UHGV virus genome: UHGV-0247313
DNA: 10,162 bases
Source of the DNA: a virus
Direction: 5' to 3' (one strand)
A program made the translations under genes and the position numbers. The stretch's first letter is position 1, and every line of letters begins with the position of its first letter. This document shows positions 1 through 10,162 of this stretch, piece by piece. Below the pieces are notes generated by a model. The model did no database searches. It was given only the letters and a program-made list of their open reading frames with translations, and was not told the DNA's origin.

Positions 1-241
1 TGATGGCATCGGGCTGGTTATCCCGCAGCCACAGCAAAACCGGGGCCATCAGCAGATTCTGGTCGCCGCTGAAATCCTCAATCACCGCGTTCAGGGTGTA
101 ACGGTACTCCCACGACATGGAGCTGGCCCCCGTGGCAACCAGCGAACCGTTATCCACAAACAGATGCAGTTTGTCCGGGTTATTGCGGACATAAGGCACC
201 GCTTTATTGAGGGCGTGGCGCAGGGATTGTGGTTTGTTCAC
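1..241 (-). CDS. R: Tail completion protein gpR-like, 5' part only (runs off the left edge)
   Basis: Minus-strand frame open from a GTG at 241..239, preceded by AGGAG 7 nt upstream, to position 1. Translation VNKPQSLRHALNKAVPYVRNNPDKLHLFVDNGSLVATGASS...LLWLRDNQPDAI resembles P2 gpR as I recall it. It overlaps the lysC 3' end, as in P2. Not in the ORF track because it has no stop in the window. Confidence 0.6.
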   Translation of the reverse strand, partial: MNKPQSLRHALNKAVPYVRNNPDKLHLFVDNGSLVATGASSMSWEYRYTLNAVIEDFSGDQNLLMAPVLLWLRDNQPDAI

Positions 242-494
242 TGTTTCGCTCCTGACACGCAATAATCATGTCCACTTTGTCTGCACAGACCGCCCAGGCG
301 GCCTCCGTTTCATCCAGCAACGCGTTCAGATCACCGTTAGTGCGCGGCGTTGCCTGATCCAGCCGACACGGCGTCACTCGCGGACAACCACTGACGGTAA
401 GCTGTACCTCCGGTGAGTGCCGGACGTTCCCGCAGCCGGATAATGTCAGCAGGCAAAGGAGTATCAGCCCAGCGGCGTAAATCCTCGTTCTCAC
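204..494 (-). CDS. lysC: o-spanin (Rz1-like outer-membrane lipoprotein), LysC-like
   Basis: 96 aa with a lipoprotein signal and lipobox (LLTLSGC). Starts inside lysB in another frame, the typical spanin arrangement. Confidence 0.8.
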   Translation of the reverse strand: MRTRIYAAGLILLCLLTLSGCGNVRHSPEVQLTVSGCPRVTPCRLDQATPRTNGDLNALLDETEAAWAVCADKVDMIIACQERNSEQTTIPAPRPQ

Positions 495-765
495 GTTTCA
501 GTTCCTCGATCCGGTGTTGTCGTTGTCTCAGCAGTGCACTGGTCTGTTCTGCTTCGGCATAGAGCCGCGCCTGCTCCCGGTTATTGGTTTCAGTCAGAAT
601 GGACAGGCTGATAAGCTGGCTGTTTTTCTTCGTCAGTTCCTGCGCTTTACTTTTCAGCGCCGCGCGCTGCGTTTCGATGGTGTGGCTGGCGCTGTTAAGC
701 CGCCACGACTGCCAGCCCAGCGCAACGAGTGCCAGCGCCACCACTACTGCCAGCGCACGCGTCAT
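337..765 (-). CDS. lysB: i-spanin (Rz-like), LysB-like
   Basis: 142 aa with an N-terminal transmembrane helix (ALAVVVALALVALGW) and a charged coiled-coil-like remainder. AAGGAG lies 8 nt upstream of the ATG at 765. Contains the embedded lysC. Confidence 0.8.
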   Translation of the reverse strand: MTRALAVVVALALVALGWQSWRLNSASHTIETQRAALKSKAQELTKKNSQLISLSILTETNNREQARLYAEAEQTSALLRQRQHRIEELKRENEDLRRWADTPLPADIIRLRERPALTGGTAYRQWLSASDAVSAGSGNAAH

Positions 766-925
766 AGTCCAGCTCCTTTAAGGCACCAGGCCATCTCCCG
801 CGCACGGCGGTTATCCAGCCCCTGATTAAACACACCTTTTACATAAACCCAGCGCGGCAACTGTCGGCACGCATCTGCCCAGCGCCGCTGATTGAGCAAT
901 TTCACCAGTGTGGAACTACAGGCAT
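766..925 (-). pseudogene. 3' remnant of an upstream lysis-module gene (lysA position), left by a deletion
   Basis: A minus-strand frame stays open through ...RRWADACRQLPRWVYVKGVFNQGLDNRRAREMAWCLKELDY* and stops 1 nt past the lysB start. It has no plausible start and abuts the O 3' end. Confidence 0.3.
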
Positions 926-1654
926 TGCCCGTTGCTGCTTCTGCAGAGCAGACTCCAGTTCAGACAGGCGTTCTTCCTGCTCAGACAGAGATTTTTCGGT
1001 TCGCGCGCTCAGGTTTTGCTGCTCAGTGGCGACCAGCTCCACGGCCTTATGCACATCAGAGAACCGGGCGTCATCGGACTGCTCTTTTTTGGTGAACAGC
1101 GCCGTGACGCGGGAAAACAGGGACGGTTTGTCGTCCTGGACTTCCTCCAGTTCGATCACCGTTTCCTCTGCAGCGGTAAAGAGATTGGCAGGATTCTGCT
1201 TGCGGTTTGCCAGCGGGTTATGGGCTGCACTGGCGCTGAATGTCAGCATTTCAGTGCCCAGACTGGCAGGGTCATCAGTGGCAGCCAGGCCGACCAGGTA
1301 GGCTTTGCCCGTATCAGCGAACTTCGGGCTGACTTCCATAGAGGTGAATAATTTCTGGCCTTTTTTCACCAGTTCCACCAGGGACTCCGTTGGCTCAACG
1401 TCGGCATACAGCGCCATCTTGCCTGCCAGCGGACCTTCCGTGATTTCCTCAGCAAACAGCGCCGTCACCTTGCCGTAGCGGTTAAAGGTGCTGTCCGGCA
1501 GATAAGACTTGATGTGCTCAAGGTTAATCAGCGCGGTATACACCGCCGGGTTGTAGCTGGCTGCCATCTGTTCCAGCCATTCACGCTGGATTTCGCGTCC
1601 GTCGGTGGTGGCACCTTCCACCCCGATGCGAAAACGCTTTGCTTTCACTGTCAT
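902..1654 (-). CDS. O: Capsid scaffolding protein gpO-like, probably 3'-truncated with a junction-derived C-terminus
   Basis: 250 aa. FRIGVEGATTDGREI...INLEHI...YLVGLAATDDPASLGTE...SDDARFSDVHKAVE matches the P2 gpO family. GGAG lies 8 nt upstream of the ATG. Shorter than P2 gpO as I recall it (about 284 aa); the last residues (RAMPVVPHW) look junction-derived. Confidence 0.85.
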   Translation of the reverse strand: MTVKAKRFRIGVEGATTDGREIQREWLEQMAASYNPAVYTALINLEHIKSYLPDSTFNRYGKVTALFAEEITEGPLAGKMALYADVEPTESLVELVKKGQKLFTSMEVSPKFADTGKAYLVGLAATDDPASLGTEMLTFSASAAHNPLANRKQNPANLFTAAEETVIELEEVQDDKPSLFSRVTALFTKKEQSDDARFSDVHKAVELVATEQQNLSARTEKSLSEQEERLSELESALQKQQRAMPVVPHW

Positions 1655-1796: not shown

Positions 1797-3563
1797 ATGA
1801 ACACCACACTGACACCCGCAGATCTCGATCCCCGTCGGCAGGCCATGCTGCTGTACTTTCAGGGATACCGCGTAGCCCGCATTGCTGAAATGCTGGGCGA
1901 GAAAGTTGCAACCGTTCACAGCTGGAAAAAACGCGACAAGTGGGGTGACTATGGGCCGCTGGATCAGATGCAGCTCACCACCGCCGCACGCTACTGCCAG
2001 CTCATTATGAAGGAGCACAAAGAAGGGAAAGATTTCAAAGAGATTGACCTGCTGGCGCGCCAGTCGGAGCGCCATGCGCGGATCGGCAAGTTTAACAATG
2101 GCGGCAACGAAGCCGACTTAAACCCTAACGTCGCCAACCGCAACAAAGGCCCGCGTCGTCAGCCGGAAAAGAACGTTTTCACCGATGAACAGATTGAGAA
2201 GCTGGAAGAAATCTTCCATTCCTCCATGTTCAACTACCAGCGCCACTGGTGGGAAGCCGGAAAAACCAACCGCATCCGCAACCTGCTGAAGTCACGCCAG
2301 ATCGGCGCGACCTTCTATTTTGCCCGTGAAGCCCTGATTGACGCCCTGCTAACCGGGCGTAACCAGATTTTCCTTTCCGCCAGCAAGGCACAGGCCCACG
2401 TCTTTAAGCAGTACATCATCGACTTCGCCAAAGAAGTGGAGGTGGAGCTGAAAGGCGATCCGATAGTGCTTCCTAACGGGGCCACGCTGTACTTCCTCGG
2501 CACCAATGCCCGCACGGCCCAGAGTTACCACGGCAACCTGTATCTGGATGAATATTTCTGGATACCGAAATTCCAAGAGCTGCGCAAAGTGGCTTCCGGT
2601 ATGGCTATTCACAAAAAATGGCGACAAACCTATTTTTCCACGCCATCCAGCCTGACACACAGTGCTTATCCGTTCTGGTCCGGTGCGCTGTTCAACCGTG
2701 GGCGCAACAAAGCCGACAAGGTGGACATCGACCTGTCCCACAGCAATCTGGCCCCCGGCCTGCTGTGCACAGACGGGCAATACCGCCAGATAGTCACCGT
2801 GGAAGATGCGGTGCGCGGCGGCTGTAACCTGTTCGACCTCGACCAGCTACGCATGGAGTACAGCCCGGACGAATACCAGAACCTGCTGATGTGCGAGTTC
2901 GTGGACGATCTCGCGTCCGTGTTCCCGCTCAGCGAGCTGCAAGCGTGCATGGTGGACAGTTGGGAAATCTGGACCGACTTTCATGCACTGGCCCTGCGCC
3001 CGTTTGGCTGGCGCGAAGTGTGGATCGGTTATGACCCGGCAAAAGGTACGCAGAACGGCGACAGTGCCGGATGCGTGGTGGTGGCACCGCCAGCCGTGCC
3101 GGGTGGTAAGTTCCGCATTCTTGAGCGTCACCAGTGGCGCGGGATGGACTTCCGCGCCCAGGCTGACGCCATCAAAAAACTGACCGAGCAGTACAACGTG
3201 ACCTACATCGGCATCGACTCGACAGGTGTCGGCCACGGGGTTTACGAGAACGTGAAAGCGTTTTTTCCAGCCGTCCGGGAGTTTGTCTACAACCCCAACG
3301 TTAAAAACGCCCTGGTACTCAAGGCCTACGACATTATCAGTCACCGTCGTCTGGAGTTTGACGCCGGACACACCGACATAGCGCAGTCATTTATGGCAAT
3401 CCGTCGCGCCACCACCGCCAGCGGCAACCGCCCAACCTATGAAGCCAGCCGCAGCGAAGAAGCCAGCCATGCCGATCTGGCCTGGGCAACAATGCACGCA
3501 CTGTTTAACGAACCGCTGCAGGGCGAGTCCGCCAATACCAGCAATATTGTGGAGATTTTTTGA
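1797..3563 (+). CDS. P: Terminase large (ATPase) subunit gpP-like
   Basis: 588 aa, the size and family of P2 gpP. Divergent from O. Its stop overlaps the portal start (TGATG). Confidence 0.9.
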   Translation: MNTTLTPADLDPRRQAMLLYFQGYRVARIAEMLGEKVATVHSWKKRDKWGDYGPLDQMQLTTAARYCQLIMKEHKEGKDFKEIDLLARQSERHARIGKFNNGGNEADLNPNVANRNKGPRRQPEKNVFTDEQIEKLEEIFHSSMFNYQRHWWEAGKTNRIRNLLKSRQIGATFYFAREALIDALLTGRNQIFLSASKAQAHVFKQYIIDFAKEVEVELKGDPIVLPNGATLYFLGTNARTAQSYHGNLYLDEYFWIPKFQELRKVASGMAIHKKWRQTYFSTPSSLTHSAYPFWSGALFNRGRNKADKVDIDLSHSNLAPGLLCTDGQYRQIVTVEDAVRGGCNLFDLDQLRMEYSPDEYQNLLMCEFVDDLASVFPLSELQACMVDSWEIWTDFHALALRPFGWREVWIGYDPAKGTQNGDSAGCVVVAPPAVPGGKFRILERHQWRGMDFRAQADAIKKLTEQYNVTYIGIDSTGVGHGVYENVKAFFPAVREFVYNPNVKNALVLKAYDIISHRRLEFDAGHTDIAQSFMAIRRATTASGNRPTYEASRSEEASHADLAWATMHALFNEPLQGESANTSNIVEIF

Positions 3564-3979
3564 TGGGAAAGAGTAAGAAAAACCGCGCTGCGGCGACGAA
3601 CCAGATCCAGCATAAAAACCAAACTTCAGCCGAAGCATTCAGCTTCGGTGATCCCGTTCCTGTTCTGGACCGCCGCGAATTACTGGACTATGTGGAATGC
3701 GTAAAGATGGACCGCTGGTATGAGCCACCCGTAAGTTTTGACGGACTGGCGCGAACATTCCGCGCCGCCGTACACCACAGTTCACCGATTGCAGTAAAGT
3801 GCAACATTCTGACCAGCACCTACATCCCTCACCCGCTGCTCAGCCAGCAGGCGTTTTCACGTTTTGTGCAGGACTATCTGGTTTTTGGTAACGCCTACCT
3901 GGAGAAACGCACGAACCGATTCGGTGAAGTTATCGCCCTTGAGCCTGCGCTGGCAAAATACACCCGACGCGGATTAGAC

Positions 3980-4030
3980 GAACAGCGTGGCGGACTCGTT
4001 GAGCAGGGCGGATGGGATGGCAGAAAGATA
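3980..4030. repeat. Inverted-repeat arm, exact reverse complement of 4161..4211 (51 bp)
   Basis: Base-by-base comparison. A further 9-bp pair is 3971..3979 ggattagac and 4151..4159 gtctaatcc. Confidence 0.95.
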
Positions 4031-4160
4031 GCCGGGCAGGCCGTAGATCTCCTGGTTGATGTCCGGTTCCATCAGATGAAAAATGCTGCCTTTCGTGAAC
4101 TGATACGGCTGCGTGGTCATGCCGTATTGCACAAACCAGTAGGTATCTAGGTCTAATCCC

Positions 4161-4211
4161 TATCTTTCTGCCATCCCATCCGCCCTGCTCAACGAGTCCG
4201 CCACGCTGTTC
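4161..4211. repeat. Inverted-repeat arm in native orientation, partner of 3980..4030
   Basis: Encodes in-frame native portal sequence YLSAIPSALLNESATLF. Confidence 0.95.
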
Positions 4212-4657
4212 CGCCGAAAGTATTACATTAACGGTAGTCATGCAGGCTTCATCATGTACATGACCGATGCCGCGCAGAACCAGGAAGATGTGAACAACCT
4301 CCGCAATGCGATGAAAAGTGCCAAAGGCCCTGGCAACTTCCGCAACCTGTTTATGTACTCGCCTAATGGTAAAAAAGACGGACTTCAGATTATCCCGTTG
4401 TCAGAAGTCACAGCGAAGGATGAGTTTCTGAATATCAAGAACGTGAGCCGTGATGACATGATGGCGGCACACCGCGTGCCGCCGCAAATGATGGGAATTA
4501 TGCCTAATAATGTCGGGGGGTTTGGGGATGTGGAGAAGGCTAGCAAGGTATTCGTAAGAAACGAATTGATGCCCCTGCAGAAACGATTGCAGGAACTAAA
4601 TAACTGGTTGGACGAAGAAGTGCTCAATTTTTCAACCTATGAGCTTTAGTTTTAAAA

Positions 4658-4685
4658 CGAAGACCATTAGGTCTTCGCTTTATTT
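4658..4685. terminator. Bidirectional intrinsic terminator between convergent Q and the retron RT gene
   Basis: 8-bp stem cgaagacc/ggtcttcg with loop atta. T-rich tracts on both sides (ctttattt on plus; ttttaaa on minus). The RT stop codon sits in the loop. Confidence 0.6.
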
Positions 4686-5629
4686 AAAGGGTTCTTTCCA
4701 TATTTTTTTTCTAATTTGCTAATATAAGTTATTAATCTCCTATGGCTTTTTGAATCCACACTTAAAATAAATGACAACCATCCCCTAACGTGTTCTATCT
4801 CAGAAGACTTACCGCAAAATATATGATGTATCTTTGCTCTAATTTCTTTATATTTTTCTCTACCTATCCCAACTTTCTCTTGTGAAATAACTAAACCTGT
4901 AACTTTCCTCTGACTACGAGGCCCACTAATACAAGTTTTTTTTGAGTTAATAACCAATCCTTCACTTGGGATTATAGAAAATAAAAAATCACGTGCTTTA
5001 ACAACCTTTTTCATAGACTGTGCAGATAAGGTGAGATCATCGGCATATCTCGTATATATCAAGCCCCGACTACCTGCATAACCCTGAATACGATAATCAA
5101 GTTTAGAACATATTAGATTAGCTAATTTAGGTGATGATGGAGCACCTTGTGGTAGCAGATTTTTATAACAACATATTTTTGTCAAAACTGAAGATATTAG
5201 TCGATTATAACCAAGAGAATGGAACACTCCAAAAACTTTGTTAGCAGTTAAACTTGGGAAAAAATCCTCCAAATCAATATTCAGTATAAAGTTTGCCCCA
5301 ATATGCGGGGTAGCATTATTCAAAATAGATTGGTGCTTTTCAAATCCAATAGAAAAAGGAGATGACGACAGTTTATCTAAAATGTTACGTAGAACCCATC
5401 CTTGTAAGGCTTTAAGTTCTCGAGAAGGTTGGTAAATGGTTCTCATTCTCTTCTCTGGGCCTTTCTTTTCTACAGTGTAGATCCTATAGCGAAAATCAGC
5501 TGTATAGATTAACAACCGAAGTGTTTCAACAGATATGCGAGTCGCCTTAGACATGTCATGCAAATTGTTCATGACAGGTAGGCCGAGATTTCTCAATCTA
5601 AAAGTGTTCAAATATTCAGCGGATTTCAT
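4667..5629 (-). CDS. ret: Retron reverse transcriptase, Retron-Eco1 (Ec86)-type
   Basis: 320 aa with RT motifs: NIDLEDFFPS (motif A), LPQGAPSSPKLANL (motif B), YADD (motif C). Directly downstream of the msr-msd element. AT-rich unlike the flanking phage genes. Confidence 0.95.
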   Translation of the reverse strand: MKSAEYLNTFRLRNLGLPVMNNLHDMSKATRISVETLRLLIYTADFRYRIYTVEKKGPEKRMRTIYQPSRELKALQGWVLRNILDKLSSSPFSIGFEKHQSILNNATPHIGANFILNIDLEDFFPSLTANKVFGVFHSLGYNRLISSVLTKICCYKNLLPQGAPSSPKLANLICSKLDYRIQGYAGSRGLIYTRYADDLTLSAQSMKKVVKARDFLFSIIPSEGLVINSKKTCISGPRSQRKVTGLVISQEKVGIGREKYKEIRAKIHHIFCGKSSEIEHVRGWLSFILSVDSKSHRRLITYISKLEKKYGKNPLNKAKT

Positions 5630-5635
5630 GAAAGT

Positions 5636-5804
5636 TGCGCACCCTTACGTCAGAAAAAACGGGTTTCCTGGTTGGCTCGGAGAGCATCAGGCGATGCTCT
5701 CCGTTCCAACAAGGAAAACAGACAGTAACTCAGATTCAATGCAGGATGCCGAAACAACATCCAGAGGTTGACCTTAATGATAAACCTCTCGCTAAGGGTG
5801 CGCA
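5636..5804 (-). ncRNA. msr-msd: Retron msr-msd non-coding RNA (msDNA template), Ec86-type
   Basis: Flanked by 12-bp inverted repeats: tgcgcaccctta at 5636..5647 and taagggtgcgca at 5793..5804. Internal 10-bp perfect msd stem ggagagcatc/gatgctctcc at 5679..5702. Lies immediately upstream of the RT start. Matches the Ec86 msr-msd as I recall it. Confidence 0.85.
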
Positions 5805-6715
5805 TACGGAATCTTATCATAGTTAAATGTTGATTTTCTACGGTTTTCAAAATTCATAATCTCAAGCCGCAATCGGTCAAGTGTCTTTCTATCAAAGACG
5901 CTCCTAACATAGCTAGCCCCCAAAGCAGTGACCTGATAACCATCAGTCATTTGAAGTATTTTTCGTTCATTTATTAGACGAGAAACAACGGATCTAACAA
6001 TAATTTTAGATAAAACATCATCTTGCTTTATCGCTTTAAAAGCTAGTTCACACAGTGTGCGGTAGTTGACACTATCCAGTAAATAGATACAAGGCAATAG
6101 AAACCGCTCTGCGTATAATATATTTCCAATATCTTTTGATACTTTATTTTCTTTCCTAACCTTCTTAATAGATGCCATTAATTTTTTATATAATCGTAAT
6201 TTTCTGGCAACATCAATAGATGAATCACACATTTCTTTTAGTTCATTTGAACTACAACGCAAAACAGATTTTGAATTAAACTTACGCAACAGGCGAACAG
6301 GACCATAGTTAATAAAGCTACGTTTTGATTTAAATTTTGCATCTTGAATGCAAATCAACTTTCTCCTTAAGTTTTCATTATTAGAGAACGCACCAAGCTC
6401 TGTGAAAGACCCCGGACTTTCAGGAAATAAAATTATTACATCGACAGCTTCAGCCAGAATATTTTCTAAACTTAAAAGGCTATGCTGCCCTTGACCAGCC
6501 AAAAGATCATCAAATAGATCTTCTGGATAAAATATATCAACATCACTGAACTTTGCTAAAAATTGTGATAATTGATGACGCCAAGATTGATGATTAGCAA
6601 CGTCACCACCACATAGAAAAATGGTTATTTTAATATTAGCTCCTCGATAGAAGCCTTTCTTTGTGAGATGTCCTATAAGCTGTTGTTGCTGCTCATCGGT
6701 AAATTTTTTATTCAT
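5792..6715 (-). CDS. Retron effector: nucleoside deoxyribosyltransferase-like (NDT-like) N-terminal domain with a C-terminal putative DNA-binding domain
   Basis: 307 aa. N-terminal Rossmann-like motifs (ITIFLCGGD; VIILFPESPGSFTELGA). Upstream of and overlapping the msr a1 repeat. Same AT-rich composition as the RT gene. Confidence 0.8.
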   Translation of the reverse strand: MNKKFTDEQQQQLIGHLTKKGFYRGANIKITIFLCGGDVANHQSWRHQLSQFLAKFSDVDIFYPEDLFDDLLAGQGQHSLLSLENILAEAVDVIILFPESPGSFTELGAFSNNENLRRKLICIQDAKFKSKRSFINYGPVRLLRKFNSKSVLRCSSNELKEMCDSSIDVARKLRLYKKLMASIKKVRKENKVSKDIGNILYAERFLLPCIYLLDSVNYRTLCELAFKAIKQDDVLSKIIVRSVVSRLINERKILQMTDGYQVTALGASYVRSVFDRKTLDRLRLEIMNFENRRKSTFNYDKIPYAHP

Positions 6716-7187: not shown

Positions 7188-7523
7188 ATGAACAATATTC
7201 CCCCTATACCACAGTTAGGAATTTATGTCTCAAAAATCGATCCCACCCTACGTATCACTGTAACCGATGTTGATATTGTTGATGGTGAGGATGATTCTCC
7301 TGATGATGAATTGTTTTATTTAGTCCACTGGATCGAGGGGGAAGATGAAAGTGATATGACAGCAATGGGATTTGAGCTAGACCCAGTAGAGTGGCAGGCT
7401 TTCGTTGAATCTGAGCAATTAGTGTTTGAGCGTGATCCGTACATGGATTCAATCCCCGAAAATTCAAACTTGGCAAAGATTCGGGATTTTCTCATGAAGA
7501 CTAAACAGAATGATCATTCGTAA
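7188..7523 (+). CDS. Hypothetical small, strongly acidic protein (111 aa)
   Basis: AAGGAG lies 7 nt upstream of the ATG. About 26 Asp+Glu against about 8 Lys+Arg by manual count. No family recognised. Confidence 0.6.
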   Translation: MNNIPPIPQLGIYVSKIDPTLRITVTDVDIVDGEDDSPDDELFYLVHWIEGEDESDMTAMGFELDPVEWQAFVESEQLVFERDPYMDSIPENSNLAKIRDFLMKTKQNDHS

Positions 7524-7677
7524 GTGTAAGCATCCATCAGGAAAATGGTTTTGTAAGTGAATCATCAACTTTTAGAGAGTCTCAGACACTCCCACTTCTG
7601 CTTCTGACACAAAGCGGACGATCACTTATCAAAATAACCGCCCACCTTACGCCTTATTTCACTCATTGCCCAAACTA

Positions 7678-7707
7678 GCCCCCATCAGAATGAATCCTCC
7701 TGGGGGC
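7678..7707. terminator. Possible weak hairpin terminator downstream of the DinI-like gene
   Basis: 7-bp stem gccccca/tgggggc with a 16-nt loop. Weak T-tracts on both sides. Confidence 0.2.
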
Positions 7708-7715
7708 AACATTTC

Positions 7716-7949
7716 TTAATGCAGCCAGCTGTCGTCCTCCCACACCTTCTGCATAATTTTCATCACTTGTTTTCTTTCTTCATCCAGTTGCAGTCCGGTT
7801 AGTTCCACACCGTTAGAGCTACCTTTGCGAATGCGAATTACCGTTTTGGGATACAGGGGGCGCAGATTGCGGTAAAGCTCGGATTCAAGGGCGTCCAGGG
7901 TAGACTGGCTAATCTTCTGCTCTTTATCGATCATTATTTCAATGCGCAT
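7716..7949 (-). CDS. dinI: DinI-like protein (SOS-response family)
   Basis: Start chosen at the internal ATG 7949..7947, preceded by AGGTGA with a 5-nt spacer. MRIEIMIDKEQKISQSTLDALESELYRNL...QKVWEDDSWLH has DinI family length and pattern. The track ORF 7716..8021 is a spurious 5' extension. Confidence 0.8.
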   Translation of the reverse strand: MRIEIMIDKEQKISQSTLDALESELYRNLRPLYPKTVIRIRKGSSNGVELTGLQLDEERKQVMKIMQKVWEDDSWLH

Positions 7950-7959
7950 AAAAGTCACC

Positions 7960-8148
7960 TCAGCTGATGACATCCATTGAGCGGTTGTATTCGTGGCTTC
8001 TGATTTTTGCCATGAGTTCATCAGTCAATTCAGAAACCCACTGCAGAGCCAGCCCCTTCTCTTCATCACTACACTCACTAGCCGCTACAAGCTTAAGAAA
8101 AAAATCAATGCGCTGGAGCTTCAAAGACTCCAAAAAATAGTCCTGCAT
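7960..8148 (-). CDS. Hypothetical 62-aa protein, first gene of the LexA-box operon
   Basis: AGGAGG lies 4 nt upstream of the ATG. Its stop overlaps the dinI-like RBS, suggesting coupling. No family recognised. Confidence 0.5.
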   Translation of the reverse strand: MQDYFLESLKLQRIDFFLKLVAASECSDEEKGLALQWVSELTDELMAKIRSHEYNRSMDVIS

Positions 8149-8188
8149 CTTTCCTCCTATGACACCAAAACAATACTGTATACATAAC

Positions 8189-8208
8189 CACTGTTTATAT
8201 TTACAGTA
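8189..8208. promoter_or_regulatory. LexA box (SOS operator) upstream of orf62 and the DinI-like gene
   Basis: caCTGTttatatttACAGta fits the CTGT-N8-ACAG consensus with an AT-rich spacer, about 40 bp upstream of the orf62 start. A second half-site tactgtata lies at 8174..8182. Confidence 0.65.
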
Positions 8209-8300
8209 TATAATAATCTTACTGATGTAAAACGTTTTTTTACGTTCATCGGCCTGATATGCCTGGTATTATTAAGAGCACGAATTGTCAACCCGCGTAA

Positions 8301-9746
8301 TTAATACAGGTTCCGCCACTTATCATCTTCCTTCAGACGCTGGTTCCGATAGAAGATACGCAGGCCTGCTCCTGACGGAATACTGCCGCCGCGAAGGAGC
8401 AAATCGACTTCTTTCTCGCTGCCATCAAATCCCCTGGACTTCAGTTCATAGACGAGCTGCTGTCGCTGATGGTCTGTAATTCGCTGTTTGTAGTCTTTAC
8501 GCCGTTTCGGTTTCACCTGGCGTAACCTTGCAGCCAGTTCCCGGCGCTCTTTTTTGCTCATACTGTGCAGGTAATTGTGCAACTCCTTGTCATTCATACG
8601 GGTAATATCCGTTCTGGAGTCCCCATCAGCTGATTTGTCTTTCCCTTGTTGGTTCAAATTTTCAGCAAGGGGACAGTTATTGCCACGAGTCCAAGGGGCG
8701 CAAGCGCCCTGGTCGGCTGCCGCCTCCTGAACGTCAACGGCCTTACGAACCATTTTCCACTTCACCGCATGAGTGCAGATCTTGCCCTCTGCAATGGGTG
8801 ACCAGATGCCATAAATACGAATACCGTGATCGCCATATGCGGTCGGTTCTTCGTTGATTTCATAAGCAGTTCTGATGAGGTGATATTTGCGGGGAACCAG
8901 TACGCCGCCCTGCTTCATGATGTAGGTGGCAAAACAACCAGCATCAGCAGCAGCCAGGATTGCATCAAGACGCGGGTTATCCAGTACCGGCGCACCTGCT
9001 TTTTTGTCACCCTGTTGCCTTGCCGCCTGACCAGCCAGCAATCGCAGTTCACGGTAAGCCTGACGCCCCGGAATGCCAAAGAAGCGGAATTGCTGAACAC
9101 GATGCAGAGACGCCCAGGCATTAACGTATTCAGCGTTATCACGCAGGGATTTACCCGTTTCCTTGCTGATCTCCCCAGCCAGACCACGCCCGTCAATGTT
9201 CTTACTGATGTATTTCGCGATATAGCTTGTTGGCGTACCTTTGCGCGGGTTTATCAGCTCAGACTTAAAGCGTGGTCCCGTGTTATTGCCCAGCTCCTCG
9301 CGGTCTTCACGGATGGCAAACTTACGCAGTAATGCAGTGATGGCGCGGCGGTCTTTTTTACGCATGAAACACATGAGATGCCAGTGCACAGTACCGTCAT
9401 GATGCGGCTCAGCTACCGCACCTGCAGCAACACGCCCGATCTCTGCGGTTGCACTCATGACGTAATGTGGCAGTTTCTCTTTTGCCACCTCATTAATCGG
9501 TACGCATGGCAGGCAGTGAATCTGAGCCAGAAAACCATCTACCAGCGTTGAATCTTCAGTCAGATCGGTAAGCAGCCAGATTTCTGGTGCGGTTAATAAA
9601 TGAGGTTGCGCTGGGTTCAACTTGTTCCGCAGAATCTGCACATTCATGCCAGCACGTTCTGCCAGTTGCACCAGGTTGTGGCGCAATGCGAATGCACGAC
9701 AGGCTTCATCAAAATGTGGATGTTTGGAAACTTGGTAATCAAACAT
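8301..9746 (-). CDS. A: In-frame fusion: CII-like regulator N-terminus (about 110 aa) joined to a P2 gpA-like rolling-circle replication nickase C-terminal region
   Basis: N-terminus [25 protein letters not shown]...[29 protein letters not shown] matches the phage CII (186 CII/CP76-like) family. It then switches to [15 protein letters not shown] (HUH motif) and [12 protein letters not shown] (paired catalytic tyrosines). The HUH motif sits near residue 120 here; in P2 gpA as I recall it sits far further in. Start taken at ATG 9746, as in the plus-strand copy at 10087. Confidence 0.75.
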
Positions 9747-9805
9747 GGTCAATGCCTCTGATGTATTTCAGAATCGAACTAATTAAGGTTTAGATTGCAT
9801 TCTGA
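9671..9805. repeat. Left arm of a 135-bp perfect inverted repeat (partner 10028..10162)
   Basis: Exact reverse-complement match over the full length, limited by the window end. Holds the cII-like start, the intergenic region and the last 9 codons of the 73-aa ORF. Confidence 0.95.
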
Positions 9806-9832
9806 TCATCATTAAACGAGGAATGTTGCATC

Positions 9833-10054
9833 ATGAGACCTAACATTTCAATCACTCTTACCACCCCTCATGTGACTATTGAACGCTATAGCGAGCTGAC
9901 AGGGCTATCCATCGATACCATCAATGACATGTTGGCTGATGGACGCCTTATCCGTCACCGACTGCGCAAAGATAAAAAACGCGAAAAAGTGATGATCAAC
10001 ATAGCAGCAATGACCGTTGATGCGCTTTCAGAATGCAATCTAAACCTTAATTAG
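9833..10054 (+). CDS. Small helix-turn-helix DNA-binding regulator (Apl/Cox-like?)
   Basis: 73 aa with an HTH-like segment ([23 protein letters not shown]) and a basic tail. Sits directly upstream of the plus-strand cII-like start, as apl/cox precedes cII/B in 186/P2-type early operons. Confidence 0.45.
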
Positions 10055-10162
10055 TTCGATTCTGAAATACATCAGAGGCATTGACCATGTTTGATTACCA
10101 AGTTTCCAAACATCCACATTTTGATGAAGCCTGTCGTGCATTCGCATTGCGCCACAACCTGG
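10028..10162. repeat. Right arm of the 135-bp inverted repeat (partner 9671..9805)
   Basis: Reverse complement of 9671..9805. It may extend past the window end. Confidence 0.95.
10087..10162 (+). CDS. CII-like regulator, 5' end only (second, plus-strand copy; runs off the right edge)
   Basis: ATG at 10087 with AGAGG upstream. [25 protein letters not shown] is identical to the N-terminus of the minus-strand fusion gene. Confidence 0.65.

What the first reader, a model, noticed from the sequence alone, without database searches (positions are those of the whole stretch)
7716..8210. LexA-box-controlled two-gene operon (orf62 then DinI-like) next to the cargo island
A near-consensus LexA box (CTGT-N8-ACAG, 8189..8208) sits about 40 bp upstream of a 62-aa ORF that is coupled to a DinI-like gene. 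The position and SOS control resemble the LexA-regulated tum antirepressor operon at the right end of phage 186. orf62 could be a short antirepressor or another SOS-timed accessory factor; I do not recognise it.
Basis: partly seen in the sequence, partly recalled or inferred. Interest (0 to 1): 0.5.

Follow-up and report, generated by a model that had tools for sequence, protein, structure and literature searches.

The report
SOS-controlled prophage antirepressor operon (tum-dinI)
This is the DNA-damage switch of a P2-family prophage, in which a LexA-repressed promoter drives a 62-residue antirepressor (Tum) and a DinI-like protein; deleting the gene for an identical protein in E. coli HS abolished prophage induction, so the finding is correct but already known.

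Summary
A strong LexA box lies at 8208..8189 on the - strand and matches the consensus at 17 of 20 positions. It sits 40 nt upstream of a 62-codon gene (8148..7960). Ten nt further on comes a DinI-family gene (7949..7716).

The window is the defective P2-like prophage of E. coli B/BL21(DE3). orf62 is not an unknown gene. Its product (WP_001154431.1) is identical to ECHS_RS04495 of the E. coli HS prophage DuoHS. That gene is called tum in a 2025 paper, where deleting it, or making LexA non-cleavable, abolished mitomycin-C induction.

It is also the orthologue of the upstream half of the "split tum" of Fels-2, an arrangement also described for PsP3. Profile comparisons link it to the N-terminal antirepressor half of phage 186 Tum.

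A LexA box precedes the gene in 58 of 62 related loci, and dN/dS is 0.03-0.14.

- The operator is a dual, overlapping SOS box (8208..8174), nearly identical to those of colicin Y, colicin R and pesticin promoters.
- The tum type tracks the N-terminal domain of the CI repressor.

Verdict: real, correctly interpreted and already known. Interest is low.

The parts
8226..8231 (-). Putative -35 hexamer TTTACA of the SOS promoter
   Evidence: Read. It lies 17 nt upstream of TACTGT (8208..8203). The annotated 186 p95 promoter has the same layout, TTCACA-N18-TACTGT. This is inferred: the consensus scan found no canonical sigma-70 site.
8203..8210 (-). Putative -10 region: TACTGT (8208..8203, as in 186 p95) or TATACT (8210..8205, 15-nt spacer)
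   Evidence: It overlaps LexA box 1, so bound LexA would occlude RNA polymerase. This is inferred.
8189..8208 (-). LexA box 1 (distal), TACTGTAAATATAAACAGTG
   Evidence: It matches the consensus at 17/20, with 0 of 200 shuffles doing so. It is the only CTGT-N8-ACAG in the window. It is the best site in the window, 21.2 bits, with a matrix trained on 24 independent tum-upstream boxes. It is identical in Fels-2 and in E. coli HS DuoHS.
8174..8193 (-). LexA box 2 (proximal), CAGTGGTTATGTATACAGTA, overlapping box 1 by 5 nt
   Evidence: It is the second-best site in the window at 15.8 bits, and the next best is 3.6. None of 100 shuffles reaches 15.8. It is identical to the proximal box upstream of the colicin Y gene, and near-identical in the colicin R and pesticin promoters. 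An equivalent box is present in 21 of 31 evaluable species loci from the genome scan (71-98% aa identity); the 21 are all at 82% or more.
8153..8158 (-). Shine-Dalgarno AGGAGG of tum (orf62)
   Evidence: It lies 4 nt before ATG 8148 and is conserved in Fels-2 and DuoHS.
7960..8148 (-). tum / tumA-type antirepressor gene (orf62, 62 aa; WP_001154431.1)
   Evidence: - Sequence links: PHROG 698 at 5.9e-38, with cross-hits to the TumA/Tum families 8554 and 1993. hhalign against 186 Tum gives probability 94.6%, E 7e-8, residues 3-44 against 3-44.
- Selection: dN/dS 0.03-0.14 in 29 loci.
- Structure: AlphaFold2 predicts a helical hairpin, pLDDT 86.
- Function: it is 100% identical to ECHS_RS04495, the tum gene deleted in PMC12055606.
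7716..7949 (-). DinI-like gene (tumB-type, 77 aa; WP_001217575.1)
   Evidence: Pfam DinI at 6.6e-23. It is 41% identical to 186 Tum residues 71-145. PHROG 189 at 1.5e-29. It has the same size and place as PsP3 tumB. Its GAGGTG Shine-Dalgarno (7961..7956) overlaps the tum stop codon.
7678..7707 (-). G+C-rich hairpin (GCCCCCA...TGGGGGC) followed by UAGUUU; a possible weak terminator at the edge of the cargo region
   Evidence: Seen in the fold; the 86-nt stretch as a whole is not unusual (z -0.81). It is placed like 186 t95a. It lies in the variable segment: similarity to most other genomes stops at 7706-7718. This part is tentative.

Best explanation
This is the SOS operon of a Fels-2/DuoHS-type P2-family prophage, here the defective copy carried by E. 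coli B/BL21(DE3).

**Resting state.** LexA sits on a 35-bp operator (8208..8174) that overlaps the -10 and start region, and keeps the promoter shut. This operator probably binds two LexA dimers.

**After DNA damage.** RecA-stimulated LexA cleavage frees the promoter. One transcript then gives two products.
- Tum (orf62) is a 62-residue helical-hairpin antirepressor. It is homologous to the N-terminal half of phage 186 Tum. By analogy with 186 Tum it binds the CI immunity repressor and stops it from binding its operators, which derepresses the early lytic promoter.
- The DinI-like protein corresponds to the C-terminal half of 186 Tum and to PsP3 TumB. By analogy with DinI it modulates RecA filaments, and thereby the course of the SOS response.

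**Shown here or in the literature.** The sequence features; their conservation; the homology; the requirement for the identical gene and for cleavable LexA in E. coli HS; and DNA-damage induction of a gene of the Fels-2 STM2726-STM2728 operon.

**Inferred.** Direct LexA binding to these two boxes. Direct Tum-CI contact for this family. The role of the DinI-like protein.

**In this host.** The BL21(DE3) reference copy of the prophage lacks most of A, part of cII and the capsid genes, so the switch can fire but cannot yield phage.
For: - **LexA operator.** Searches give the statistics. ranks box 1 first and box 2 second in the window. The box is conserved in 8/8 reference phages and 50/54 further loci, across homologues reaching down to about 37-50% identity to orf62.
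- **Promoter layout.** It matches the annotated 186 p95 promoter.
- **Real gene.** dN/dS is 0.03-0.14, and mismatches by codon position are 236/105/649.
- **Homology to Tum.** orf62 hits PHROG 698, 8554 and 1993. 186 Tum hits 1993, 8554 and 698 (2.4e-5). PsP3 TumA hits 1993. hhalign gives 94.6%, E 7e-8, in register.
- **Same architecture.** A 60-62-aa gene followed by a 77-aa DinI-like gene is also found in PsP3 (tumA/tumB) and Fels-2.
- **Literature on split tum.** Fels-2 and PSP3 have tum split in two. In PSP3 the upstream gene carries the antirepressor activity. 186 Tum binds CI and prevents operator binding (PMC3121763).
- **Genetics.** ECHS_RS04495 is the same RefSeq protein as the BL21 gene, and the translations are identical. 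Its in-frame deletion, or lexA(Ind-), abolishes mitomycin-C-induced lysis and virion foci (PMC12055606).
- **Transcript level.** STM2727, listed in the Fels-2 operon STM2726-STM2727-STM2728, is induced 5.5- to 14.8-fold by the mutagen MX (PMC2225428).
- **The target is present.** CI is encoded about 1.7 kb beyond the window end in BL21(DE3) and differs at 3 of 189 residues from HS CI.
- **Core versus accessory.** tum plus a LexA box occurs without a DinI-like gene in ESSI-2, ev015 and the distant clades.
Against: - There is no pairwise BLAST similarity between orf62 and the 186 Tum N-half or PsP3 TumA. The profile match to PsP3 TumA alone is weak (probability 7%).
- No canonical sigma-70 promoter was found by the consensus scan.
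- LexA binding and Tum-CI binding have not been measured for this family.
- The HS deletion could in principle be polar on the downstream DinI-like gene.
- Near-identical Tum proteins (97-98%) occur with CI proteins only 39-54% identical overall. A CI-specific binder must therefore contact a conserved surface.
- In the BL21(DE3) reference copy of this prophage the lytic programme is broken.
Confidence: 0.9

Rival explanations
1. Only box 1 is a working LexA site. Box 2, and the likeness to colicin promoters, reflect shared constraint or chance, so control is by a single LexA dimer as in phage 186 and PsP3.
For: - Box 2 has GTG where the consensus has the conserved CTG in its left half.
- 186, PsP3, ESSI-2, ev015 and all the distant clades manage with one box.
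- Any two LexA operators must resemble each other to some degree.
Against: - Box 2 scores 15.8 bits with an independently trained matrix. It is the second-best site in 10 kb, with the next at 3.6, and 0 of 100 shuffles reach it.
- It is identical to the proximal box upstream of the colicin Y gene, including the non-consensus GTGG.
- Across 21 loci its CAG half-site is kept while the spacer varies.
Confidence: 0.35
2. orf62 is not itself the antirepressor. The induction defect of the HS deletion comes from loss of coupled translation of the DinI-like gene, and orf62 is a leader or adaptor.
For: - The two genes are 10 nt apart, and the second Shine-Dalgarno overlaps the first stop codon.
Against: - orf62 homologues with a LexA box stand alone, with no DinI-like gene, in ESSI-2, ev015 and all distant clades.
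- In PSP3 the upstream gene carries the antirepressor activity (PMC3121763).
- orf62 is under strong purifying selection and is homologous to the non-DinI half of 186 Tum.
- Non-polar dinI deletions in Gifsy prophages had no significant effect on induction.
Confidence: 0.04
3. In this defective prophage the operon is an inert relic. It is neither expressed nor of any consequence.
For: - In the BL21(DE3) reference the prophage has lost most of A, part of cII, the capsid genes and part of the lysozyme gene.
- The window additionally has a disrupted portal gene.
Against: - Both proteins are 100% identical to those of the functional DuoHS phage, and box 1 and the Shine-Dalgarno are unchanged.
- CI, the Apl-like gene and integrase are still present in BL21(DE3).
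- Nothing in 7716..8240 is degraded.
Confidence: 0.05

Closest known systems
tum (ECHS_RS04495) and the DinI-like gene of the P2-like prophage DuoHS of E. coli HS (Phollow paper, PMC12055606)
   Same: - The Tum and DinI-like proteins are identical (WP_001154431.1, WP_001217575.1).
- Box 1 is identical, and the gene order A-tum-dinI-like is the same.
- In both genomes rcdA lies next to the integrase end of the prophage.
- CI differs at 3 of 189 residues.
   Different: - DuoHS is a complete, inducible phage. The BL21 copy is defective.
- The cargo downstream differs: two hypothetical genes in HS, the retron plus a 111-aa ORF here.
- Box 2 differs at two spacer positions.
Fels-2 (Salmonella LT2) STM2728 and the adjacent DinI-family gene; lexA-null lethality due to Fels-2 (Bunny et al. 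2002, as cited in PMC3121763 and PMC8072944)
   Same: - 97% amino-acid identity for orf62, and about 91% DNA identity over tum-dinI-like plus the end of A.
- Box 1 is identical and a dual box is present.
- A gene of the STM2726-STM2728 operon, STM2727, is induced by DNA damage.
   Different: - The host and the downstream gene differ. Fels-2 has a 243-aa gene where 186 has orf97.
- CI is only 40% identical overall, but 65-68% in the N-terminal domain.
Phage 186 Tum (146 aa) and the p95 SOS operon
   Same: - The position after gene A, and the LexA box overlapping the -10.
- Homologous N-terminal half (hhalign 94.6%), and a DinI-like C-terminal half at 41% identity.
- 186 also makes the DinI-like part separately from an internal GTG start.
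   Different: - 186 has one fused polypeptide, whereas this operon has two genes.
- 186 has a single LexA box, whereas this operon has two.
- There is no pairwise similarity in the N-half.
- 186 has orf97 downstream, and its CI N-terminal domain is only 40% identical.
PsP3 tumA (60 aa) / tumB (77 aa)
   Same: The same split two-gene layout and sizes, with a LexA box 20 nt upstream. The upstream gene is reported to be the antirepressor.
   Different: - TumA belongs to another PHROG (1993), and orf62 matches that family only at E 0.002.
- It has a single LexA box, matching at 19/20.
Dual overlapping SOS boxes of colicin and pesticin promoters
   Same: - Two 20-bp boxes offset by 15 nt, joined by CAGTGG.
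- The 35-bp operator matches the sites upstream of the colicin Y, colicin R and pesticin genes at 85-91% over about 42-47 nt, and a small Col-like plasmid site at 92.9%. Database-wide E values go down to 4e-8.
   Different: - The -35 and spacer upstream are unrelated. In the colicins the boxes lie just after the -10 rather than on it.
- The regulated genes are unrelated.
Gifsy prophage LexA-controlled antirepressors GfoA/GftA with dinI and irsA homologues
   Same: The same logic: LexA controls a small antirepressor co-transcribed with a DinI homologue, and the repressor is not cleaved.
   Different: - The gene order is reversed, with dinI first.
- The phages are lambdoid and the repressor family differs.
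- I did not test sequence relatedness.

Membership tests
186 Tum / PsP3 TumA-type LexA-controlled antirepressor of P2-family phages | [quoted passage not shown] | tested here: met
   The remnant of A ends at 8301, tum is at 8148..7960, and the cargo and portal follow. The order is the same in 186, PsP3, Fels-2 and DuoHS. A is found upstream in most of the 54 further loci.
186 Tum / PsP3 TumA-type LexA-controlled antirepressor of P2-family phages | A LexA box overlaps the promoter just upstream of the gene | tested here: met
   LexA binding itself was not measured.
186 Tum / PsP3 TumA-type LexA-controlled antirepressor of P2-family phages | Sequence homology to the N-terminal (non-DinI) half of Tum | tested here: met
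   It is met at profile level only. hhalign gives 94.6%, E 7e-8, and there are reciprocal PHROG cross-hits. Pairwise BLAST finds nothing.
186 Tum / PsP3 TumA-type LexA-controlled antirepressor of P2-family phages | Required for SOS (UV or mitomycin C) induction of the prophage | not testable with these tools
   The literature supplies this. An in-frame deletion of the identical gene ECHS_RS04495 abolishes induction, as does lexA(Ind-) (PMC12055606).
186 Tum / PsP3 TumA-type LexA-controlled antirepressor of P2-family phages | Binds the CI repressor and reversibly prevents operator binding | not testable with these tools
   This has been shown only for 186 Tum (as described in PMC3121763). The indirect evidence here is that the Tum type tracks the identity of the CI N-terminal domain.
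DinI family (Pfam PF06183) | Match to the family model above its curated cut-off | tested here: met
   81.3 bits against a cut-off of 24.2, E 6.6e-23, covering the whole model 1-63.
Chromosomal DinI proper (NCBIfam NF007893 equivalog) | Score above the equivalog cut-off | tested here: not met
   42.7 bits against a cut-off of 111. It is a phage DinI-like paralogue, not DinI itself.
Colicin-type dual overlapping SOS operator | Two LexA-box-like 20-mers overlapping by a few bases, each recognisable as a LexA site | tested here: met
   Box 1 scores 21.2 bits and box 2 scores 15.8 bits, ranks 1 and 2 in the window.
Colicin-type dual overlapping SOS operator | Binding of two LexA dimers, giving tight repression and late induction | not testable with these tools
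   This is reported for colicin genes (PMC2994835). It has not been measured for any tum promoter that I could find.

The most novel reading that the evidence does not exclude
In the Fels-2/DuoHS clade the tum promoter carries a colicin-type dual overlapping SOS operator. This 35-bp module shares even its non-consensus bases with colicin Y, colicin R and pesticin promoters. If both boxes bind LexA, this clade would delay and sharpen prophage induction in the way colicin producers restrict lethal toxin synthesis to a few heavily damaged cells. The module may have moved between Col-type plasmids and P2-family phages. A second reading that the evidence does not exclude: this Tum type recognises the conserved N-terminal DNA-binding domain of CI. 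That would let one Tum act across several immunity types and so cross-induce co-resident P2-family prophages.
Probability: 0.45. Interest if true: 0.4.

Novelty: already known. Interest (0 to 1): 0.2.

Why it matters
- **Prevalence.** Sequence matching this stretch is common: 1125 of 5426 complete E. coli genomes match 7500..8320. It decides when these P2-family prophages leave the chromosome.
- **Annotation gap.** The antirepressor is still labelled "hypothetical protein" in RefSeq and has no Pfam or NCBIfam model. A plain link from WP_001154431.1 to tum would therefore be useful.
- **BL21(DE3).** The laboratory workhorse keeps an intact, presumably SOS-inducible tum-dinI-like pair and its CI target inside a dead prophage. 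This could affect SOS dynamics and expression of the neighbouring prophage genes after DNA damage.
- **The dual operator.** If it works, it would give a concrete sequence handle for why some P2-family prophages induce late or in few cells.

Tried and rejected
- **Pairwise BLAST** of orf62 against 186 Tum and PsP3 TumA gave nothing. Only profiles show the link.
- **Pfam and NCBIfam** have no family for orf62. PDB sequence searches gave no hit for the orf62 family, and only DinI for 186 Tum.
- **Foldseek** of the AlphaFold2 hairpin against the PDB and viral models returned only generic two-helix matches with E > 0.4. This was uninformative.
- **The terminator-like hairpin** at 7971..7954 spans the tum stop and the next Shine-Dalgarno. 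I considered it a translational-coupling device. It is kept only in the nearest relatives and is not conserved across 33 loci, so I rejected it as a general feature.
- **Rfam** found no RNA family anywhere in the window.
- **The search for related loci** with the diverse alignment failed for lack of a conserved stretch. Single proteins were used instead.
- **Bunny et al. 2002** could not be read because it is not held. Its content is taken from papers that cite it.
- **Heterology index.** I did not have the original Lewis matrix, so I used an independently trained matrix instead.

Full report
**What is in the sequence.**
- On the - strand, the stop codon of the replication gene A remnant is at 8303..8301.
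- The intergenic region then reads TTTACA (8231..8226), 17 nt, and then TACTGTAAATATAAACAGTG (8208..8189).
- After 40 nt that include AGGAGG (8158..8153) comes an ATG at 8148. It opens a 62-codon ORF ending in TGA at 7962..7960.
- A GAGGTG overlapping that stop, followed by 6 nt, leads to an ATG at 7949. This opens a 77-codon ORF ending at 7716.
- CTGT-N8-ACAG occurs once in the window, with 0.10 expected. The 20-mer matches the LexA consensus at 17/20, which no shuffle reached.
- The second ORF is a clear DinI-family member: Pfam PF06183, 6.6e-23.

**Where the window comes from.**
- It is the defective P2-like prophage of the E. coli B lineage. It is 100% identical to BL21(DE3), apart from two segments that are reverse-complemented in the window.
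- That prophage carries the retron at 4667..6715, a natural deletion fusing cII to the C-terminal part of A (ORF 8301..9752), and losses in the capsid and lysis region.
- Its CI repressor, Apl-like gene and integrase are intact. CI starts about 1.7 kb beyond where the window leaves the reference.
- 7500..8320 finds matches in 1125 of 5426 complete E. coli genomes.
- Similarity to most of them, and to Fels-2, stops at 7706-7718, right after the DinI-like stop codon. The variable cargo region starts there.

**What orf62 is.**
- Pfam and NCBIfam have no model for it, and RefSeq calls it hypothetical.
- It belongs to PHROG 698 (5.9e-38). It also hits PHROG 8554 (1e-8) and PHROG 1993 (0.002).
- PsP3 TumA is PHROG 1993 (2.7e-32). 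The N-terminal 60 residues of 186 Tum hit 1993 (1e-22), 8554 (1.4e-11) and 698 (2.4e-5).
- I built a 31-member alignment of the orf62 family from an exhaustive HMMER search. It aligns to 186 Tum with hhalign probability 94.6% and E 7e-8, residues 3-44 against 3-44.
- The gene is real. Against 29 species-level homologues dN/dS is 0.03-0.14, and differences fall 236/105/649 on codon positions 1/2/3.
- AlphaFold2 predicts a two-helix hairpin, helices 2-23 and 28-61, with pLDDT 86. Fold searches gave only generic hairpins.

**The same arrangement elsewhere.**
- PsP3 has tumA (60 aa) and tumB (77 aa, DinI-like) in the same place.
- Fels-2 has STM2728 (97% identical to orf62) followed by a DinI-family gene.
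- 186 has the two parts fused as Tum (146 aa), and also starts the DinI-like part separately at an internal GTG.
- The window's DinI-like protein is 41% identical to 186 Tum residues 71-145.
- Lemire et al. state that Fels-2 and PSP3 have tum split in two by a stop codon. They also state that in PSP3 the upstream gene is the antirepressor and the downstream gene the DinI homologue, and that 186 Tum binds CI and prevents operator binding (PMC3121763).
[quoted passage not shown] 2002, as cited).
- In a Fels-2-carrying Salmonella strain, STM2727 was listed in the LexA regulon and rose 5.5-, 11.1- and 14.8-fold with the mutagen MX. STM2726-STM2727-STM2728 was scored as one responding operon (PMC2225428). 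That STM2727 is the DinI-like gene is my inference from its number.

**Direct genetics on the identical protein.**
- The Phollow paper (PMC12055606) studied DuoHS, the P2-like prophage of E. coli HS.
- In the HS genome, ECHS_RS04495 is the 189-bp gene between the replication endonuclease and the DinI-like gene. Its product is WP_001154431.1, the same accession as the BL21(DE3) gene under the window's orf62. The DinI-like proteins also share one accession.
- I checked the translations. Both are 100% identical, box 1 is identical, and CI differs at 3 of 189 residues.

**Conservation of LexA control.**
- One strong LexA box (16-19/20) lies 18-47 nt upstream of the start codon in all eight reference phages examined. 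These are the window, Fels-2, 186, PsP3, ESSI-2, ESSI2_ev015, MLG42 and vB_YenM_06.16-2. The surrounding sequence is otherwise unalignable between clades.
- In 54 further loci, 50 have such a box. Of these loci, 33 came from a one-genome-per-species scan and 21 from viral contigs found with family members about 37% and 50% identical to orf62.
- Two of the four exceptions are contig ends, and one is a frameshifted pseudogene.
- A DinI-like gene follows in only part of the close clade, and never in the distant clades, ESSI-2 or ev015.
- The conserved core is therefore LexA box plus tum. The DinI-like gene is an accessory.

- Box 1 is followed by a second box, CAGTGGTTATGTATACAGTA (8193..8174), sharing 5 nt with it.
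- I trained a symmetrised matrix on 24 tum-upstream boxes from loci that lack this feature. Box 1 is then the best site in the window (21.2 bits) and box 2 the second best (15.8 bits). The third is 3.6 bits, and no shuffled window reaches 15.8.
- Searching the 71-nt promoter against plasmids returned small Col-type plasmids and Yersinia pPCP1, with database-wide E values down to 4e-8. In three of the four records I opened, the matched sites lie immediately upstream of the colicin Y, colicin R and pesticin genes; the best-matching plasmid, CP057427, has no annotated gene there.
- Aligned by eye, window TACTGTAAATATAAACAGTGGTTATGTATACAGTA compares with colicin Y TACTGTACATAAAACCAGTGGTTATGTATACAGTA. 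Box 2 is identical, including the non-consensus GTGG.
- The dual form is present in Fels-2, DuoHS and MLG42, and in 21 of 31 evaluable species loci from the genome scan. It is absent from 186, PsP3, ESSI-2, ev015 and all distant clades.
- I found no mention of it for tum promoters. That both boxes bind LexA here is inferred.

**How Tum may find its target.**
- Phages whose Tum is 90-98% identical to orf62 have CI repressors only 39-54% identical overall.
- I split 12 CI proteins into an N-terminal domain (residues 8-72) and a C-terminal domain (residues 85-189) and compared each with the BL21 prophage CI.

| Tum type of the phage | CI N-terminal identity | CI C-terminal identity |
|---|---|---|
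| orf62 90% or more | 66-77% | 25-40% |
| orf62 41-49% | 60-63% | 25-31% |
| PsP3, 186 and vB_YenM_06.16-2 Tum types | 40-46% | 29-39% |

- N-terminal identity therefore follows the Tum type, while C-terminal identity shows no trend.
- This fits a Tum that contacts the DNA-binding domain, in line with 186 Tum blocking operator binding. The sample is small and shared ancestry is not excluded.

**Mechanism and standing.**
- LexA, probably as two dimers, covers the -10 and start region.
- After DNA damage the promoter opens, and Tum and the DinI-like protein are made from one transcript.
- Tum inactivates CI. The DinI-like protein, by analogy with DinI, acts on RecA filaments.
- In BL21 the output is abortive because the prophage is broken.
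- The promoter hexamers are inferred from the 186 p95 annotation, and the consensus scan found none.
- A G+C-rich hairpin at 7707..7678 may end part of the transcript. It lies in the variable segment and is tentative.

**Verdict.** The system is already known: the exact protein has been studied under the name tum. What remains of interest is an annotation gap, the colicin-type dual operator, and the CI N-terminal covariation.

Noticed in passing
window 3980-4159: This 180-bp segment is the reverse complement of BL21(DE3) sequence and overlaps both flanks. That creates a 52-bp perfect inverted repeat (3980-4031 against 4160-4211) and splits the portal gene Q into two ORFs (3560-4150 and 4254-4649). 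The BL21(DE3) reference and E. coli strain C both have an intact 1026-bp portal gene. This may be an assembly artefact or an introduced change.
   Followed up: partly
window 9805-10162: The last 358 bases are the reverse complement of BL21(DE3) sequence that partly repeats window 9671-9805, so the window ends in a foldback. As a result the 73-aa Apl/Cox-like gene appears on the + strand (9833-10054). In BL21(DE3) and HS it lies on the same strand as cII. No complete E. coli genome covers 9300-10162 in one piece.
   Followed up: partly
window 8301-9752 (- strand): This 483-aa ORF is a fusion of the N-terminal part of the 186-type CII regulator (Pfam CP76, residues 12-115) with the C-terminal part of replication protein A (from about residue 113). 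It results from a deletion of about 3.4 kb that is natural in E. coli B strains. RefSeq annotates both halves as pseudogenes in BL21(DE3).
   Followed up: yes
window 4667-6715 (- strand): Retron cargo. It comprises a 320-aa reverse transcriptase and a 307-aa effector with a weak nucleoside deoxyribosyltransferase-like match, which RefSeq calls the retron St85 family. Rfam at gathering threshold reports no RNA family anywhere in the window, including the 160-nt gap at 5630-5791.
   Followed up: partly
window 7188-7523 (+ strand): A very acidic 111-aa ORF lies between the retron and the tum operon, convergent with the DinI-like gene. It matches PHROG 17127 (2e-70, unknown function) and has no Pfam or NCBIfam match. 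It is present in only some of the genomes that carry the tum operon: 325 genomes cover at least 80% of 7500-8320, against 1125 with any match.
   Followed up: partly
window 204-1654: The capsid scaffold gene O (902-1654) is directly followed by a lysozyme remnant and then lysB/lysC. The major capsid, small terminase, head completion, tail X and holin genes seen in E. coli HS are missing. This is another deletion that makes the prophage defective.
   Followed up: partly
L009 701-742, L010 143-188, L011 701-743, L012 580-627: Small Col-type plasmids and Yersinia pPCP1 carry, just upstream of the colicin Y, colicin R and pesticin genes, a dual SOS operator 85-93% identical to the window's 8208-8166 region. 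This includes 7-8 nt beyond box 2 (ACAGTATTGTTTTG in L009).
   Followed up: partly
L005 1501-1668 (ESSI-2), L006 1501-1713 (ESSI2_ev015): In these Peduoviridae the tum homologue (41-49% identical) has a single LexA box and stands alone between gene A and the portal end. No DinI-like gene is present.
   Followed up: yes
L043 3001-3179 (Siccibacter turicensis): The orf62 homologue is frameshifted into a pseudogene, and no LexA box was found within 160 nt upstream. It appears to be a decayed copy of the switch.
   Followed up: no
window 7954-7971 (- strand): The hairpin GTCATCAGCTGAGGTGAC spans the tum stop codon and the DinI-like Shine-Dalgarno and is followed by TTTTAT. The scan flagged it as terminator-like. 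It is kept in Fels-2 and the nearest relatives but not across 33 species loci.
   Followed up: yes
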